Shown here piece after piece: positions 4,072-33,982 of a DNA stretch of 41,341 bases. The position numbers and the translations under genes were made by a program. The DNA comes from a virus (Duplodnaviria; Caudoviricetes): IMG/VR virus record IMGVR_UViG_3300032270_000871, positions 1-41,341 of that record, one strand, 5' to 3'. Each line of letters starts with the position of its first letter. The first letter of the stretch is position 1. A model generated the notes under the pieces. That model was given only the letters and a program-made list of their open reading frames with translations. It was not told where the DNA came from and ran no database searches.

Positions 4072-4125
4072 ACTATAGGACAAAAAAACAGGGGCGTCAA
4101 GCCCCTGTGCCACTTATGTAACTGT
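4072..4125 (-). promoter_or_regulatory. terminator hairpin fused to sigma70 promoter (copy 4)
   Basis: TTGACG-N17-TATAGT; the -35 box forms the loop of hairpin GGGGC-TTGAC-GCCCC, followed by a T tract. Confidence 0.8.
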
Positions 4126-4128
4126 CTG

Positions 4129-6381
4129 TTAAGCGAGTGCGAAGGAGGTTGAACCGATGCCAACCACATTAAAGATCAATCTGTTACCCGAGACCCAGAT
4201 TTGAGTAGCTGCATTATTAACACCACTTGCAAATCCACCTGTTGCAGTGATAATACCAGTATTACCACTATTCATAGTAATACCCGTACCAATTCTTACA
4301 GGTCCATTAGTGAATGTGGAAACACCAGTGACTTGTAATGTAGTAACGTTTGCAATACCACCACTTACGGTTGTTGAAATGCCTGCCTGAGTAGATACAG
4401 TTGCAAATCCTGCTACTGATGCAATCGTAGAAACTCCCGATTGAGCAGCAAAGGTTGCAAATCCAGCAACAGATGAGATTGTAGAAATACCTGCCCATCT
4501 TGCGAAGGTAGAGAACCCAGCATTTGCCGAATTACCATCCGTTGTTGCAACATCAAACCATCTGGTTCCGTTATAATACTGTTGAGTGCTAGTATTGCTA
4601 TTATAAATCATACCACCAGCAACAGTGGAAGCAATTGAAATACGTTGAGCTGTTGTAAGAGTAGGTGGAATAATATATCCTAATGTAGCGGCTAAACCAA
4701 CTCTACCAAAGTCAAAAATAGAACGAGGATTATAAGTATTAAATCCTACAGCACAGAATTCATTTAATCCTATTTGTGACCCAAAAATGGTCATTGATGA
4801 ATCAAAGTCTTCAGTTCCGTGAATTTGAATTTGACCATAGAAACCAGGATCATAAAGTGCCGTTGTTCCAATACCAATACTTGAAAGTTGTGAATGTCCA
4901 TTTACGGCAAGTGTAGTATTTCCATTAAAAAGAGCAGTCGTTGAAAGTCCAAGACTGTCAAAATAAGCAACGGAACTACGAGCATCAAAACCTACTTCTG
5001 GTTTGCTAGTTCCCAAACCAATGCTGCTAATACCAGTCGGATTGTATACATTTAGATTTGTAACTGTAGAAACACCAGATGTTGCATAAATGTTGTTATT
5101 AACAACTCCACCACCACCGAAAGTGCTTCCACTAACAGTAAGTGTGCCAGTTATGAATGCACTGTTATTAACATATAAATTGTCTCCGACATAACAATCA
5201 TTAGTAACCGTAGATGTTCCTACAACGTGCAGAGCATTTAATGGAGCGGTAATACCAATTCCAAGATTTCCATCATAGGTCAATGACATCAAATTGGTGA
5301 GATTTTGACCATATAACCAGTTAAATGCTCCTGTTCCTAGTCCAGAAGCACCAAGATGAATATAATTATTAACATTTCCAACATCATAATTAATAATATC
5401 TAAGGAATTTGGAGTGCTGTATGGATATAAAGCACTAGTGTTTCCGAATCTTAAAACTCCATTATATCCTGTAAGTGCAGTGCTTCTACCAAATGCAACG
5501 ATTGCTTCTGCACTATCACTCGTAACCTGCAATTTAGATTGTGAGGTTCTTCTAATATGAATATCACTAGATGGAGAATTGGTGCCTACTCCAATTGATT
5601 CGGCATAAAATCTCGTATAAACTGTTGAAACTCCTACTGAAGAAATACCGCCCCTAATTACAGAAGAAGTTATAACTCCAGTATTATTAATATTTGAAGA
5701 GGTTATATTTGATACTGAAATATTAGGATTTCCACTTAGGCTGAGTGCCGTTGATGCAATACCAACTAAAGTTCCATAAAACGTGGTTGCTGTAACAACA
5801 CCAATAAAAAGGGATTGTGGAATAACTGTAGATGGAAGACTACCTCCCGTAATATTAGATGCATTTATTGATGTAATTCCATATCCTGCACCAAAAAATG
5901 AAGTGGCACTTATAATACCAGTGGTGATGATATTACCATTTGAGTTAATGCCGACACCAGGAAGATTATCTAATGGATTAGCACCAATTTGAAGACTAAA
6001 TCTTGGGTCTAATGTATTAACACCTACATTTCCTGCGGCATAGATGCTCGTAAAACCAAGACCCACATCCACATCAACCCATTGTGATGTGGGAAGATTA
6101 GATAGTGTGGCACCATTTCCATAGAATGCAGTTGCTGTAACAACACCAGCAGATGCAGAAAGTTGAATAGAACCTACACGAACCTGATTAAATGTTGCAA
6201 CTCCAGTTACACTTAAGTTTGTTGTTGTAACAAGACCAGCAACTCTTACATTACCAAGAACATCAAAAGTTTCTCCCGGAATTGACGTTCCAATACCAAC
6301 CAGGCTTCCACGAACAATAAACTTGTCTACATCAACCTGTACACCATTTTTGAAGTTAAATGACTTATTATAATTTGCCAT
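4129..6381 (-). CDS. tail fibre-like virion structural protein
   Basis: 750 aa, G/S/T/V-rich with repeated VGIGT and GVST/GIST motifs; AATAAATA late promoter at 6396-6403. Confidence 0.8.
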   Translation of the reverse strand: MANYNKSFNFKNGVQVDVDKFIVRGSLVGIGTSIPGETFDVLGNVRVAGLVTTTNLSVTGVATFNQVRVGSIQLSASAGVVTATAFYGNGATLSNLPTSQWVDVDVGLGFTSIYAAGNVGVNTLDPRFSLQIGANPLDNLPGVGINSNGNIITTGIISATSFFGAGYGITSINASNITGGSLPSTVIPQSLFIGVVTATTFYGTLVGIASTALSLSGNPNISVSNITSSNINNTGVITSSVIRGGISSVGVSTVYTRFYAESIGVGTNSPSSDIHIRRTSQSKLQVTSDSAEAIVAFGRSTALTGYNGVLRFGNTSALYPYSTPNSLDIINYDVGNVNNYIHLGASGLGTGAFNWLYGQNLTNLMSLTYDGNLGIGITAPLNALHVVGTSTVTNDCYVGDNLYVNNSAFITGTLTVSGSTFGGGGVVNNNIYATSGVSTVTNLNVYNPTGISSIGLGTSKPEVGFDARSSVAYFDSLGLSTTALFNGNTTLAVNGHSQLSSIGIGTTALYDPGFYGQIQIHGTEDFDSSMTIFGSQIGLNEFCAVGFNTYNPRSIFDFGRVGLAATLGYIIPPTLTTAQRISIASTVAGGMIYNSNTSTQQYYNGTRWFDVATTDGNSANAGFSTFARWAGISTISSVAGFATFAAQSGVSTIASVAGFATVSTQAGISTTVSGGIANVTTLQVTGVSTFTNGPVRIGTGITMNSGNTGIITATGGFASGVNNAATQIWVSGNRLIFNVVGIGSTSFALA

Positions 6382-13312: not shown

Positions 13313-13385
13313 TGCCCGTGGTCGGATTCGAACCGACCCTGGAAGGATTTTAAGTCCTCTGTCTCTTCCGCTGGACTACACGGGC
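13313..13385 (-). tRNA. tRNA-Leu(TAA), short variable loop
   Basis: Acceptor GCCCGTG/CACGGGC, anticodon arm GAGGA-CTTAAAA-TCCTT, T loop TTCGAAT; no encoded CCA. Confidence 0.9.
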
Positions 13386-13416
13386 GTGTATGAAACTATT
13401 ATATCATAATAGTCAA

Positions 13417-13489
13417 TGCTCCTTGAGGGGATCGAACCCACCTGAGGCGAATTATGAGTTCGCTGCTTTCACCAGATAGCTAAAGGAGC
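13417..13489 (-). tRNA. tRNA with CAT anticodon (elongator Met or Ile2)
   Basis: Acceptor GCTCCTT/AAGGAGC, anticodon arm GCGAA-CTCATAA-TTCGC, T loop TTCGATC. Confidence 0.88.
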
Positions 13490-13492
13490 AAG

Positions 13493-13581
13493 TGCGAGTG
13501 TAGGGAATCGAACCCTAACACGGGACTAATCTGGTCCACTTGGGCTTATAAGACCCACGATGCTCCATACATCACACTCGC
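13493..13581 (-). tRNA. tRNA with TAT anticodon (nominal Ile), long variable arm
   Basis: Acceptor GCGAGTG/CACTCGC, anticodon arm TGGGT-CTTATAA-GCCCA, variable arm GGAC-CAGATTA-GTCC, T arm TAGGG-TTCGATT-CCCTA. Confidence 0.8.
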
Positions 13582-29482: not shown

Positions 29483-30155
29483 ACTGCTCAAGTTTATCTC
29501 CAACAAATTTTCTAATATATTGGACGAGCAATTTAAGGTACTTTGCTTTGTCGTATTCTTCATAAACTACACATTCTCCATTTTCACAAGACATAATGAT
29601 AACAAATTTTTTGACTGGTATCTCAGTCAGTTCGTAAAACATTGCCGCATAGGCACAACACTGAACGAAATAATGGTCAATCCACTCACGTGGTTTGGGT
29701 TTCTTAGAAGTCTTAAAATCGATGATTGCCAGCTCACCATTATACTCGGCAATGCAATCAACGGTTCCCGCAATACCTAATTGCTTACTATATAGGGAAC
29801 CTTCAAGAGAGTGAATATTATTTATATTCTTGAGAGTTGATTTCGCAATATTAAATAAAAACTCTGAGATTGGAAGAATCTCCGTAGGAGATTCTAAGTT
29901 TTTCAAGAAATACTCAGTAAGAGTATGCATATCCGTACCACGACTTGTTGCAAGTTTTGTGATACGGTCTGCTTCCTCATCTCCAACTTTTTTTCTCCAC
30001 TTCACAAAGATCTCTTTATTAAAGTGACTTGTGATAGAAGTAATCGAAACTAACTTGAGTAGTTCTTCATCATCAGGTACTTTATAATAACGAATACCAT
30101 CAATGGTCTCCCTTTCCAGTTTAGGAAGGGCAATGTCAATATGATTAAAACTCAT
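29469..30155 (-). CDS. PD-(D/E)XK exonuclease
   Basis: RGTDMH, AGTVDCI, IIDFKTS and QCCAYA motifs. Confidence 0.88.
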   Translation of the reverse strand: MSFNHIDIALPKLERETIDGIRYYKVPDDEELLKLVSITSITSHFNKEIFVKWRKKVGDEEADRITKLATSRGTDMHTLTEYFLKNLESPTEILPISEFLFNIAKSTLKNINNIHSLEGSLYSKQLGIAGTVDCIAEYNGELAIIDFKTSKKPKPREWIDHYFVQCCAYAAMFYELTEIPVKKFVIIMSCENGECVVYEEYDKAKYLKLLVQYIRKFVGDKLEQYGTK

Positions 30156-31564
30156 TTTGCCCATACCTGTTCATGAAAATTTTTAATATAATCTAAGTGA
30201 TGCATAGTTGGATATTCTTCGTCAAAGATTTTATATGGCAAACTTTTAAGATTTGTTTTCCACTGAACATCTTTGGATGCAATAGTTTGATGAAACATTA
30301 ATATGTCATCATAATTGACGAAATATGGATTATCCAAGTTACTCATTATTATATCATAGAAATCATATTTTACAAGCTTATGGTCTCTCCAGAAGTCAGT
30401 ATCATTACGATGACAAGTTTTGTACTGACACAGAATGAACGAACACCAATACTTATAGTCAAAGGCAATTAATTCATTTATTTTTTCAAGATAGGTAGAA
30501 TTGTCCTGAGGATTTTTAATTGCGAGATAATTAATTACCGATTCTATTGTATTAAGAGTTGCGGTAATTCCGGGTGCATCCAATGGTTCTAGGAAACCCT
30601 GTGCCATTCCCAGAGTACAATAATTTTCGTGAAATGGAGTTTTATTATATTTTGGATTGAAATTAACGACGATTGGTTCAATAGTTTTATCACCAATGTC
30701 ATTTAAAAATTCATCTACAGCTTCATCTATACTTACGTGATTTGTGCTGAATACATATCCAGTTCCAATTCTGGACCAAGTTGGAGTAATCCATCTCCAA
30801 CCGTGCTTCATAGTCTTTGCTTTTGTATAAGGATGAAATTGTTCTCTTTTTTTTGTATATTTGAGAGGATAGACAACTGCCTTATTCGTTAGAAGAACAT
30901 TGGACAAGTCTTCATATTTGATGCCCAATACATCTTCATTTAATTTTGTGTCCCCTGTTGCAAACACATAATAATCTGCAGAAAATTCTACTCCATCAAC
31001 AAAAATAGTTTGAACATCATCATCTCTCTTTATTACATCATTTACCGTTCCAGAAAGAAACTCTACTTTTGGATCTTTGAGTGCATTTTGTGAGAAGAAA
31101 TCTATAAACTTTCCAGCATCAAAATGATACGATATTGGATGCGTATTGCCATCCAAAGAAACATGATCATTGAATATTGTCTGAGTTAGGTTATATGCAA
31201 TTAGATCGTGAATATAAACTTCTGGATCCTTATTTGCCAAAAGTCTTCCATAATGGGCATAATCCTCTAGATCAAAATTCTTGAAGTGATTAATATAATC
31301 TTTTTTGGACCAGTTTATATAATTGACACCATATTTTAATACGGCATCAGTTCCTATAATAAATTCTTCAAGTGTGAAATCTCCATTTAAAATTAATGGA
31401 TTTAGAAAATTATTTACAAAAAGAAGAGTATTGGACTCCCCAACACCAATGGGTGGAATATGGGGAGATCCTACTACCGTAATTTTATCAATGAACTGGA
31501 TATTCTTTAAAAGATTGCAACACATCCATCCTGAAGTTCCAGTTCCAATAATACAAATGTGCAT
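30152..31564 (-). CDS. flavin-dependent (tryptophan halogenase-like) enzyme
   Basis: GxGxxG, IGVGES, conserved Lys (VLKYGV), YHFDA, WRWITP, FLEPL. Confidence 0.88.
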   Translation of the reverse strand: MHICIIGTGTSGWMCCNLLKNIQFIDKITVVGSPHIPPIGVGESNTLLFVNNFLNPLILNGDFTLEEFIIGTDAVLKYGVNYINWSKKDYINHFKNFDLEDYAHYGRLLANKDPEVYIHDLIAYNLTQTIFNDHVSLDGNTHPISYHFDAGKFIDFFSQNALKDPKVEFLSGTVNDVIKRDDDVQTIFVDGVEFSADYYVFATGDTKLNEDVLGIKYEDLSNVLLTNKAVVYPLKYTKKREQFHPYTKAKTMKHGWRWITPTWSRIGTGYVFSTNHVSIDEAVDEFLNDIGDKTIEPIVVNFNPKYNKTPFHENYCTLGMAQGFLEPLDAPGITATLNTIESVINYLAIKNPQDNSTYLEKINELIAFDYKYWCSFILCQYKTCHRNDTDFWRDHKLVKYDFYDIIMSNLDNPYFVNYDDILMFHQTIASKDVQWKTNLKSLPYKIFDEEYPTMHHLDYIKNFHEQVWAK

Positions 31565-32589: not shown

Positions 32590-33225
32590 TTAGATCCAGT
32601 CAAGAGCTTCCGAGACTGCTGGGAATTGTTCGGCAAACACTTTCTTACACTCTTCGGCAATTACCATATGTTCTTTCTGAGTTCCGTGAGCAGAACGCAG
32701 ATTGATATAATGGATCCACGACCTACAAGAACCCGTCATATAAATCCTTGTGGGAACTGCCAGTGGCAATACAAACCTTGCACACTCTTTTGCCACCTCT
32801 GCCTCTAAGAGTTCCTTGTAGAGGTCCTGAGCGGCATTAAAGTGATCTTGGATCTTGGAGTAAAGTTGAGCAGTAAGGTCTGCTGGAAGGTCGTCTGTGG
32901 AGTTCTGACGGTTCTTTGTATCCTGCCTACGAAGTTCTGGTAGGGGAATGTCCTCGGCAATCAGATTTGTATCTGCATAGCGTTGGCTGAATTCCTGAAA
33001 TGTGAAACTCCTGTGACGCAAGATTTGTGCCGCAATACCACGGGTTGTTTCAATCTCCAGTGTCATAGAAGACTGTTCAAACACAGACCAATGATTATGC
33101 TTAATACAATAAGCAAGCAACTTGGAATAGTTTTCCGAACTCTGATTACTTGGATTAGAAACTCGTGCAATAAATGCCATTGTTTTTTCTGCATCTGGAG
33201 TCACGCTAATAAGTTTTACGGTCAT
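32590..33225 (-). CDS. thyX: flavin-dependent thymidylate synthase
   Basis: HWSVFE, RHRSFTFQEFSQRY, KECARFVLP. Confidence 0.95.
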   Translation of the reverse strand: MTVKLISVTPDAEKTMAFIARVSNPSNQSSENYSKLLAYCIKHNHWSVFEQSSMTLEIETTRGIAAQILRHRSFTFQEFSQRYADTNLIAEDIPLPELRRQDTKNRQNSTDDLPADLTAQLYSKIQDHFNAAQDLYKELLEAEVAKECARFVLPLAVPTRIYMTGSCRSWIHYINLRSAHGTQKEHMVIAEECKKVFAEQFPAVSEALDWI

Positions 33226-33377
33226 TTCTTTCCAAATCCTTTGTAATCTTTTGTGGGTTCTTTTTGCGATTGTAGCACAGAAAGTTGCGACTTCATAAAC
33301 TTAAGTTCTTCGTCAGAATACAAATGGTCTTGCTTCAGTGCTTCCTTAATTAATTGAATTGCTTTTTTGGTCCTCAT
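33222..33377 (-). CDS. small hypothetical protein (51 aa)
   Basis: Own translation MRTKKAIQLIKEALKQDHLYSDEEL...KGFGKK; ATGA overlaps on both sides. Confidence 0.75.
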   Translation of the reverse strand: MRTKKAIQLIKEALKQDHLYSDEELKFMKSQLSVLQSQKEPTKDYKGFGKK

Positions 33378-33529
33378 TCATCATCCTCAAAGATTTCATC
33401 GTAATCCAATTCTCTAGGCTTAACATCATCAAATTTATATGCCTGAACATCAGAGTAGATTTCTTCTTTGAGACTATCTACAAGAAGTTCCATATTACGA
33501 ACGATGAGTTTCAGTTTTTCCTTATCCAT
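33374..33529 (-). CDS. small acidic hypothetical protein (51 aa)
   Basis: Own translation MDKEKLKLIVRNMELLVDSLKEEIYSD... Confidence 0.75.
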   Translation of the reverse strand: MDKEKLKLIVRNMELLVDSLKEEIYSDVQAYKFDDVKPRELDYDEIFEDDE

Positions 33530-33560
33530 TTAATTGAATACTCTTTGGTCATTCTACCAT

Positions 33561-33586
33561 AAAAAAAGGAGGGGATCAACCCCTCC
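33561..33586 (-). terminator. intrinsic terminator
   Basis: GGAGGGG-TTGAT-CCCCTCC followed by T7. Confidence 0.85.
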
Positions 33587-33592
33587 AGAATA

Positions 33593-33691
33593 TCAGCGCA
33601 TTGCCATTGCAAGTTTTGCTTGGTGTTTGCGTTCTTCTTTTTGCTTTTTCTCTTTAATGAGTTGAAGCACATTGATAGTTTTGTTTGACAT
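33593..33691 (-). CDS. small basic peptide (32 aa) downstream of glutamine-riboswitch-like RNA
   Basis: MSNKTINVLQLIKEKKQKEERKHQAKLAMAMR; AAGGAG RBS; terminator immediately after. Confidence 0.7.
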   Translation of the reverse strand: MSNKTINVLQLIKEKKQKEERKHQAKLAMAMR

Positions 33692-33722: not shown

Positions 33723-33893
33723 GCGTTCCTTCAGTCGGCGGTTGCGTCTATTTTACACTCGCTGGGTGCAATCTTTTTGATTTCCCAAATTAAATCATTG
33801 CGAATTTGTGGTGGCATATTGACCTCCATTACTCTTCCAATAACCAATTGTGCCTGAAGGCAACTAAGTAAGAGTGTTTCCATAGATGAACGA
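33723..33893 (-). ncRNA. glutamine riboswitch-like aptamer 2, with long insertion in P2
   Basis: CGTTCA-TCTAT...ATAGA-CGCAACCGCCGACTGAAGGAACGC. Confidence 0.65.
33731..33883 (-). CDS. small ORF (50 aa) nested in riboswitch aptamer 2
   Basis: METLLLSCLQAQLVIGRVMEVNMPPQIRNDLIWEIKKIAPSECKIDATAD. Confidence 0.55.
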   Translation of the reverse strand: METLLLSCLQAQLVIGRVMEVNMPPQIRNDLIWEIKKIAPSECKIDATAD

Positions 33894-33896
33894 AAT

Positions 33897-33939
33897 CCGT
33901 TCCACGTCGGCTTACTTCCGACCCTTATGGGTTGAACGT
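33897..33939 (-). ncRNA. glutamine riboswitch-like (glnA motif) aptamer 1
   Basis: CGTTCA-ACCC-ATAA-GGGT-CGGAAGTAAGCCGACGTGGAACG; P1 CGTTC/GAACG and GGAAGTA element. Confidence 0.75.
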
Positions 33940-33946
33940 ACTGTAT

Positions 33947-33982
33947 ATATTAGCATAAAATTGAAAAAGTAGCAACCGATAC
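33947..33982 (-). promoter_or_regulatory. promoter with NtcA box overlapping -35
   Basis: GTA-TCGGTTGC-TAC at 33969-33982; TTGCTA-N17-TAATAT with TGn extension. Confidence 0.6.

What the first reader, a model, noticed from the sequence alone, without database searches (positions are those of the whole stretch)
33723..33893. A complete 50-codon ORF nested inside a riboswitch aptamer stem-loop
The two halves of aptamer 2 (CGTTCA-TCTAT and ATAGA-CGCAACCGCCGACTGAAGGAACGC) are about 130 nt apart. The gap is an ORF whose start codon lies in the 5' strand of P2 and whose TGA lies in the conserved CTGAAGGAACG. Aptamer folding would sequester the start codon, while translation would unfold the aptamer. 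This suggests mutually exclusive translation and ligand binding, and possibly reciprocal control of the 50-aa and 32-aa products. GTCGG in aptamer 1 can also pair with the CCGAC present in both aptamers, giving an alternative fold.
Basis: partly seen in the sequence, partly recalled or inferred. Interest (0 to 1): 0.85.

Follow-up and report, generated by a model that had tools for sequence, protein, structure and literature searches.

The report
Gene nested inside interlocked glutamine riboswitch
In this cyanobacteria-infecting phage, a conserved 50-codon protein gene sits inside one hairpin of a predicted two-site glutamine-sensing RNA switch, so the ribosome and the folded sensor would compete for the same RNA, a layout shared by many related phages that I could not find described.

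Summary
Confirmed, with a corrected fold. The window is a T4-like cyanophage fragment. On the minus strand a 50-codon ORF (33883-33731) lies in a hairpin loop of a glutamine-I-like riboswitch. In 158 distinct related elements this loop is short (45) or holds a 49-69-codon, two-cysteine ORF (113). The closing stem covaries, and the ORF is under purifying selection (dN/dS about 0.3). The sensor is not two side-by-side aptamers. Covariation shows one core nested in the other: the first CGTTC pairs with the last GAACG, the halves share P3 and its E-loop, and a circularly permuted second core carries the ORF. The outer linchpin C also begins a predicted anti-SD helix, which suggests glutamine switches the downstream 32-aa gene on and the nested gene off; binding and translation are untested. 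In relatives, two other loops carry genes too, one a homing endonuclease. Rfam's threshold misses the element, and I found no paper on it, though two key papers were unavailable. This scan noted the nested gene and interlocked fold before on other phage DNA; its notes showed no match for the endonuclease slot.

The parts
33947..33955 (-). Likely extended -10 promoter element (TG-n-TAATAT), 8 nt before the first riboswitch base
   Evidence: Sequence. A TAnnnT hexamer lies 7-9 nt before the first C in 116 of 135 relatives (loose pattern). The consensus scan did not call a promoter here in the window.
33934..33938 (-). Outer P1 5' strand (CGTTC); pairs with 33724-33728
   Evidence: 145 of 145 loci paired at the variable position, including a U-A change; five further loci
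33921..33932 (-). Outer P2 hairpin. Short here; holds a second small two-cysteine ORF in some relatives
   Evidence: Rfam alignment. Long in 21 of 145 loci; ORFs listed.
33913..33920 (-). Outer junction CGG (linchpin G33918) and AAGTA, the 5' side of the E-loop
   Evidence: G33918 pairs with C33723; Watson-Crick in 156 of 158 elements
33905..33912 (-). Shared P3, 5' strand; pairs with 33733-33740 (six pairs, two C/A mismatches)
   Evidence: Compensatory U-A/G-C/A-U changes at the tip pair and further changes
33887..33903 (-). Inner, circularly permuted P1' hairpin: GAACG 33902-33898, linchpin partner G33897, short loop, CGTTC 33892-33888
   Evidence: 158 of 158 paired at the variable position, 6 with a G-C swap; predicted 0.9 or more
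33882..33886 (-). Inner P2' 5' strand (TCTAT), including the A and T of the start codon
33731..33883 (-). Nested 50-aa ORF (phrog_504 family), invariant Cys8 and Cys43, predicted helical hairpin
33744..33751 (-). Inner P2' 3' strand (ATAGA) and inner junction CGC (linchpin C33744); also codes for the protein's tail
33723..33740 (-). Shared P3 3' strand, stop codon, E-loop GAA, outer P1 3' strand (GAACG 33728-33724) and linchpin C33723
33699..33723 (-). Predicted expression platform: anti-SD 33723-33717 pairs with the SD region 33705-33699
   Evidence: Pair probabilities 0.91-0.99; same outcome in 37 of 37 loci of the G-C class
33593..33691 (-). Downstream 32-aa basic peptide; weak match to the N-terminal part of phrog_545. 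The DUF4278-like gene found here in most relatives is absent
33560..33586 (-). Intrinsic terminator-like hairpin with T run

Best explanation
A conserved 50-codon gene lies inside the inner hairpin of a phage leader RNA that covariation predicts to fold as two interlocked glutamine-I-type cores, and glutamine binding likely turns the downstream gene on while shutting the nested gene off. Steps: (1) Shown by sequence and relatives: the ORF, its selection, and the covarying long-range pairs. (2) Inferred from covariation: the outer core closes from the first CGTTC to the last GAACG; P3 with its E-loop joins the two halves; at the tip of P3 sits a circularly permuted second core whose P2' encloses the ORF. 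(3) Inferred from homology to solved structures: both cores keep the glutamine-contacting bases, so up to two glutamines would bind. (4) Predicted: without ligand, outer P1 and P3 are open and C33723 starts an anti-SD helix that blocks the downstream 32-aa gene (an IF17-like DUF4278 gene in most relatives). Binding would pull C33723 into the linchpin pair and free that SD, as proposed for Synechocystis gifB. (5) Inferred: a ribosome on the nested ORF must unwind P2', P3 and outer P1. It also has a 130-nt head start during transcription, so each mRNA would alternate between translated and sensor-folded states, with glutamine shifting the balance.
For: Outer linchpin with the base after the final GAACG: Watson-Crick in 156 of 158 (119 C-G, 37 G-C), against 122 of 158 for the side-by-side model. 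Inner linchpin with the base after the first GAACG: 150 of 158 as parsed, 155 after five parse errors found, against 116 (121) for side-by-side. On 36 ORF-less loci the nested fold has 99.0% of 838 cells paired, 10 pairs with double changes and both linchpins at 100%; side-by-side gives 75% for both linchpins. Both linchpin bases flip together in sister pairs L061/L078 and L106/L150, and between the close relatives L045 and L095 (short proteins, weak tree, at least 3 changes forced by starred branches). P1 swaps follow the nested model even across a 597-nt insert in 5 loci. ORF: 113 of 113 open with exactly two Cys; dN/dS 0.14-0.50 for the window against 18 of 19 relatives; pooled pN/pS 0.34 over 35 disjoint pairs. 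A GGAG appears before the nested AUG in 46 of 54 ORF-bearing and 0 of 15 ORF-less loci of the short-P3 class. At least one AUG base is in the stem in 101 of 113. Ligand contacts and the long-range pair are from PMC6698751; the anti-RBS model starting at the linchpin C is from PMC6212724.
Against: No binding, translation or expression data; the only RNA run found does not cover the element. The window's class has no GGAG before the nested AUG (0 of 59). Inner P1' and P2' are predicted to form without ligand, so ligand may add little to start-codon masking. In the larger C-G class the downstream SD is predicted paired in only 64 of 115 loci, so the ON logic is clear only for the G-C class. 45 of 158 elements lack the ORF, so it is dispensable for the sensor. 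pN/pS is biased downward because pairs were chosen at 60% or more amino-acid identity. The first half scores 32.4 bits, below Rfam's 35. The window's 32-aa product has no DUF4278 match, so its link to glutamine synthetase is unknown.
Confidence: 0.58

Rival explanations
1. Cargo slot: the interlocked sensor is real and controls only the downstream gene. The nested gene uses a tolerant loop behind a strong early promoter and is translated regardless of glutamine.
For: All three loops accept whole genes in relatives, including a homing endonuclease in the P1' loop. The ribosome has a 130-nt head start. 45 of 158 elements have no ORF. 51 of the top 150 family representatives lack the riboswitch-coded tail, with unknown context.
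Against: The start codon stays at the stem edge in 101 of 113 loci and the stop at one fixed place in 105 of 113, despite lengths of 49-69 aa. Any translation must still unfold the sensor, so the two functions cannot be independent.
Confidence: 0.17
2. Translational coupling: a ribosome terminating at the nested TGA covers the anti-SD 8-14 nt downstream and frees the next gene's SD. Nested translation and glutamine binding would then be two alternative ways to turn the downstream gene on.
For: The stop is fixed 40 nt before the downstream ATG and next to the anti-SD (105 of 113 loci). The ribosome footprint length is recalled, not measured.
Against: The stop position may simply be the first in-frame stop the RNA consensus offers. 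S-SRM01 lost it through a compensatory P3 change and reads five codons further. ORF-less loci keep the same platform.
Confidence: 0.15
3. The fold is conserved but the ligand is not glutamine, or only the outer core binds and the inner one is a structural relic.
For: No binding data. Each half alone is below Rfam's cut-off in the ORF-bearing and short phage loci tested. There is one E-loop for two cores.
Against: Both cores keep the bases shown to contact glutamine. The inner linchpin itself covaries (3 C-G swaps in 36).
Confidence: 0.07
4. Two independent side-by-side aptamers, the second closing its own P1 around the ORF.
For: The P1 strands are near-identical, so both pairings are possible, and constrained folds are equal in energy (-53.5 against -53.0 kcal/mol).
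Against: Linchpins mismatch in 36 or more of 158 elements, P1 swaps mismatch in 6, and neither half has a P3 of its own. In the window itself both linchpins would be mismatched (G-G and C-C).
Confidence: 0.03

Closest known systems
Glutamine-I riboswitch (glnA RNA, Rfam RF01739), e.g. the Synechocystis gifB/IF17 leader (PMC6212724)
   Same: P1/P2/P3 junction, E-loop, long-range linchpin pair, anti-RBS starting at the linchpin C, and a DUF4278-like downstream gene in most relatives
   Different: P3 is capped by a second, circularly permuted core instead of a loop; a protein gene lies inside P2'; phage-encoded; the window's downstream gene is not a DUF4278 match
Glutamine-II riboswitch (RF01704) strand-exchanged crystal dimer and two-piece form (PMC6698751)
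   Same: A binding site built from the 5' part of one copy and the 3' part of another, with two sites back to back
   Different: There it arises between two molecules in a crystal or by design and uses a pseudoknot; here it is one natural chain with an E-loop P3
Tandem glnA RNAs of Weinberg et al. 2010 (PMC2864571) and the glnA annotation of S-CREM1 (PMC9964418)
   Same: The 2010 alignment holds sequences like the two phage halves; S-CREM1's annotated 99-nt glnA is the ORF-less form of this element
   Different: The halves are aligned as separate aptamers without P3; the passages I saw mention neither interlocking nor a nested gene
Group I introns with endonuclease genes in peripheral loops (recalled, no call)
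   Same: A complete ORF looped out of a structured RNA, with its start masked by RNA structure; relatives here even carry a homing endonuclease in one loop
   Different: No splicing core was seen; the host RNA is a ligand sensor that stays in the mRNA
Leader-peptide attenuators and riboswitch leaders with overlapping uORFs (recalled, no call)
   Same: A ribosome competes with RNA folding upstream of a regulated gene
   Different: The ORF here codes for a folded two-cysteine protein under purifying selection and lies within the aptamer, not in the expression platform

Membership tests
Glutamine-I riboswitch (RF01739) | P1 with CGUUC/GAACG and the C1, G2, G18, C39, G40-equivalent ligand contacts | tested here: met
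   Present in both cores (numbering from the glutamine-II structure); invariant in the outer core of alignment A2
Glutamine-I riboswitch (RF01739) | Long-range linchpin pair (G23-C60 type) | tested here: met
   Outer 156 of 158; inner 155 of 158 after correcting five parse errors
Glutamine-I riboswitch (RF01739) | Three-way junction with P3 and E-loop (AGUA/GAA) | tested here: met
   Met by the outer core only, using P3 strands from both halves; the inner core has no E-loop of its own in the window
Glutamine-I riboswitch (RF01739) | Single compact domain in normal strand order reaching the Rfam gathering score | tested here: not met
   No hit at gathering; first half 32.4 bits against 35. The element works like RF01739 but is not filed as a standard member
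Glutamine-I riboswitch (RF01739) | Selective L-glutamine binding and switching | not testable with these tools
   Needs probing, ITC or reporters
Glutamine-I riboswitch (RF01739) | Upstream of a DUF4278/IF17-like or nitrogen gene | tested here: inconclusive
   87 of 143 relatives have an N-terminal YRG motif. PF14105 is above cut-off for P-SSM7 and below it for two others. No match in the window
Glutamine-II riboswitch (RF01704) | Pseudoknot helix with the 3' tail in place of an E-loop P3 | tested here: not met
   19.5 bits against 33, with mismatches in that helix; P3 covaries between the halves instead
phrog_504 (cyanophage small protein, unknown function) | Profile match | tested here: met
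   Window protein E 0.0057; 80 of 87 aligned members match, best E 9e-31
Glutamine-codon leader peptide (attenuator) | Conserved run of Gln codons in a short unstructured peptide | tested here: not met
   Invariant columns are C8, C43 and A47, with no Gln; confident helical-hairpin model

The most novel reading that the evidence does not exclude
Cyanophages carry a widespread two-site glutamine riboswitch, a natural single-chain form of a strand-swapped aptamer dimer, whose three loops are gene cassettes. Glutamine binding cooperatively toggles one mRNA between making a nested disulfide mini-protein and making an IF17-like regulator of host glutamine synthetase, letting the phage tune host nitrogen assimilation during infection.
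Probability: 0.35. Interest if true: 0.9.

Novelty: new variant of a known kind. Interest (0 to 1): 0.77.

Why it matters
A 2017 census found only two glutamine aptamers in phage genomes and concluded that phages rarely use riboswitches (PMC5473149). The motifs of this element are estimated in about 4,100-5,400 IMG/VR stretches, and one nested protein matches 311 phage records. Interlocking and gene inserts hide it from Rfam's threshold. If it works as predicted, a protein gene is regulated from inside an aptamer and cyanophages sense host nitrogen status directly. Both claims can be tested in cultured phages with the ORF (Syn30, S-RIM2, P-SSM2, P-SSM7, S-TIM5) and without it (S-PM2, S-CREM1). 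It also suggests that other riboswitches are missed because genes sit in their loops.

Tried and rejected
Rfam at gathering found only three tRNAs. Pfam, PDB sequence search, Foldseek against the PDB and the ESM Atlas gave no functional clue for the 50-aa protein. The viral fold library gave one match at E 0.001 or better, unnamed, followed by uncharacterised cyanophage proteins. The only RNA run found covers 33221-33443, not the element, so it says nothing on expression. The genome contigs pattern scan was mostly chance: 3 of 120 loci parsed as the element. In 401 cyanobacterial genomes the protein matched only one single-cell contig with phage gene order, and the RNA pattern gave no more hits than its reversed control: not found in those searched. 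Rejected: the GTCGG/CCGAC alternative fold (8 of 145), the side-by-side fold, glutamine-II membership and a Gln-codon attenuator. Energies cannot separate the two topologies. Ten probe words found no nested or ORF-bearing rows in the 2010 alignment, but gaps can break words, so this is weak. I did not test signal peptides or measure the Cys-Cys distance; no complex prediction was run.

Full report
Setting. The window is a 41-kb virus record, about 20% complete. Its genes near the finding look, by eye, like the thyX, phoH and glutaredoxin genes of T4-like cyanophages (labels recalled), and the DNA matches cyanomyophages, best S-SRM01. The element is on the minus strand, ahead of a 32-aa ORF and a terminator-like hairpin.

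Observation. All stated motifs are at the stated places. TCTAT (33886-33882) and ATAGA (33751-33747) are 130 nt apart. The 50-codon ORF starts in the first strand and stops in CTGAAGG. Rfam finds nothing here at gathering; at low threshold the first half scores 32.4 bits for the glutamine-I model.

Relatives. I collected loci by protein, by two RNA motifs (120 loci each, from 2 of 64 parts of IMG/VR), from a genome scan and from named phages. One search parsed 263 loci into 158 distinct elements; it left out 117 genome-scan loci that had not parsed, and loci that were truncated, chance matches or had long linkers did not parse. The inner loop is short in 45 and long in 113. Counting only the RNA-motif scans, 94 of 136 have the ORF. 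S-PM2 and S-CREM1 have the short form; S-SRM01, DSL-LC02, DSL-LC03 and P-SSM7 have the ORF. So do all 5 further phages checked: S-RIM2, S-TIM5, S-SZBM1, Syn30 and P-SSM2, whose record does not annotate it.

The ORF is a gene. 113 of 113 long inserts are open frames of 49-69 codons with exactly two Cys; shuffles are open in 2.9%. 105 of 113 stop at the same TGA or TAA. dN/dS is 0.14-0.50 for the window against 18 of 19 relatives (one saturated), and pooled pN/pS is 0.34 over 35 disjoint pairs, biased low by the identity filter. 80 of 87 aligned members match phrog_504, and 352 clusters at 50% identity match the profile. AlphaFold gives a two-helix hairpin, mean pLDDT 86.8; a disulfide is inferred only from the invariant Cys pair. 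No function was found. Of 105 loci fetched by protein, 97 match the full layout, 3 are truncated, 3 are variants with the element and 2 carry an endonuclease gene in the linker. Against strict linkage, 51 of the top 150 representatives lack the riboswitch-coded tail and their context is unknown.

The enclosing stem is real. Positions 3-5 are Watson-Crick in 101, 103 and 102 of 113 loci, against shuffled maxima of 77, 61 and 70; pairing fades at position 6. The window's fold predicts the stem at 0.71-0.87 across the ORF.

The fold is nested, not side by side. The structure paper describes a long-range pair between the junction base and the base after GAACG (PMC6698751), and PMC6212724 reports the same for G23-C60. 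Here the first half's junction base pairs with the base after the LAST GAACG in 156 of 158 elements, and with that after the first in only 122. The second half's base pairs with the base after the FIRST GAACG in 150 of 158 (155 after five parse errors), and with the last in 116 (121). The variable P1 position agrees: 145 of 145 and 158 of 158 nested, against 139 of 145 and 152 of 158. The two strands that each half seems to lack as a P3 pair with each other, with compensatory changes, placing AGUA opposite GAA as one E-loop. On 36 ORF-less loci the nested model has 99.0% of cells paired and beats shuffled and slid controls; side-by-side linchpins reach 75%. These controls do not fully remove relatedness, but both linchpin bases flip together among close relatives on the protein tree (weak tree). 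Folding energies do not separate the models. The result resembles, in one chain, the strand-exchanged dimer seen in glutamine-II crystals. Two loci (L375, L270) have symmetric halves, each with AGUA and GAA-like strands; Rfam scores both halves of L375 above cut-off. They may show the ancestral duplication (inference).

How it likely works. A -10-like hexamer lies 7-9 nt before the first C in 116 of 135 loci, so the transcript likely starts at the riboswitch; the consensus scan did not call that promoter in the window. Without ligand, the predicted fold has outer P1 and P3 open and an anti-SD helix that begins at the linchpin C33723 (0.91-0.99); 37 of 37 G-C-class loci give the same. This matches the model for gifB, so glutamine would turn the downstream gene on. 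In the C-G class only 64 of 115 loci have the SD predicted paired, so the logic there is open. A ribosome on the nested ORF must unwind P2', P3 and outer P1. At least one AUG base is in the stem in 101 of 113 loci. In the short-P3 class a GGAG precedes the AUG in 46 of 54 ORF loci and 0 of 15 ORF-less loci, but the window's class has none (0 of 59). I therefore favour reciprocal control (0.58), with cargo slot (0.17) and translational coupling (0.15) as main rivals. Nothing here shows binding, translation or direction of regulation; the one RNA run found misses the element.

Downstream gene. 87 of 143 relatives have a YRG-motif peptide; P-SSM7's passes the DUF4278 cut-off, the domain of IF17-like proteins. 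The window has only a 32-aa basic peptide with a weak match to the N-terminal part of phrog_545. Its target is unknown.

Other loops carry genes. The outer P2 is long in 21 of 145 loci, 12 with both loops filled; those listed hold two-cysteine ORFs, and one protein type occurs in either loop (L186 against L036). A targeted scan gave 35 loci: 30 have a 182-197-aa ORF after the first half, in the P1' loop, 2 have remnants and 3 are too short to tell. Both proteins tested match a PHROG homing endonuclease (E 2.5e-8, 3.4e-5) but no such Pfam family. In 28 fully parsed loci both P1 helices follow the nested model, and the outer linchpin is paired in 23.

Literature. Nine searches showed no description of the interlocked fold or nested gene. 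What I saw: PMC6698751, parts 1-3 of 5; PMC6212724, passages and section 20; PMC2864571, passages, one part of the glnA alignment and word searches of supplements, where phage-like halves are aligned as separate aptamers and wide insert columns mean unseen rows may hold long inserts; passages of PMC5473149, PMC9964418, PMC9004378, PMC12379486, PMC7357161, PMC3037559, PMC7657543 and PMC9602691; abstract of PMC9373788. Ames and Breaker 2011 and Ren et al. 2015 were not held, and either could mention tandem forms. Glutamine riboswitches in cyanophages as such are already noted.

Earlier notes of this scan. After I had formed my reading, one search showed eight agent reports on other genomes with the nested gene, most also with the interlocked cores. 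They are repeats, not independent evidence. A word search of the notes for the endonuclease slot found nothing.

Verdict. A real feature: a new architecture of a known riboswitch class with a gene inside the sensor. Interest 0.77.

Noticed in passing
L482:958-1533, L483:988-1533, L484 and others: A 182-197-aa homing-endonuclease-like gene fills the small P1' loop of the riboswitch in 30 of 35 targeted loci. L484 has all three loops filled; L481, L509 and L086 look like deletion remnants.
   Followed up: partly
L394:235-435 (S-TIM5), L032, L035, L053, L078: The outer P2 loop holds a second family of two-cysteine ORFs (phrog_6471 for S-TIM5) with hydrophobic, signal-like N-termini, starting about 10 nt after the first riboswitch base.
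   Followed up: partly
L375:272-392 and L270:272-540: Symmetric double aptamers whose P3 strands pair better across the halves than within them. L375 lies in a gammaproteobacterial genome bin, so some 'tandem glnA' RNAs outside cyanophages may also be interlocked.
   Followed up: partly
L001 (S-SRM01) 1244-1470: A compensatory A-U to C-G change in P3 removes the nested ORF's stop codon and extends the protein by five residues, so RNA pairing was kept at the cost of the stop position.
   Followed up: yes
window 33593-33691 against L004, L007, L010, L088: The downstream genes are modular: a YRG (DUF4278-like) peptide and a basic helical peptide occur as two genes, as fusions in either order, or, as here, the helical peptide alone.
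   Followed up: partly
L031, L068, L122, L140 downstream of the final GAACG: An extra conserved hairpin lies between riboswitch and SD in some loci.
   Followed up: no
window 13313-13581 (- strand): Three tRNA genes found by Rfam.
   Followed up: no
window 30152-31564 (- strand): A 470-aa ORF with a GxGxxG flavin-binding start that looks like a tryptophan-halogenase-family gene (label recalled, not searched).
   Followed up: no
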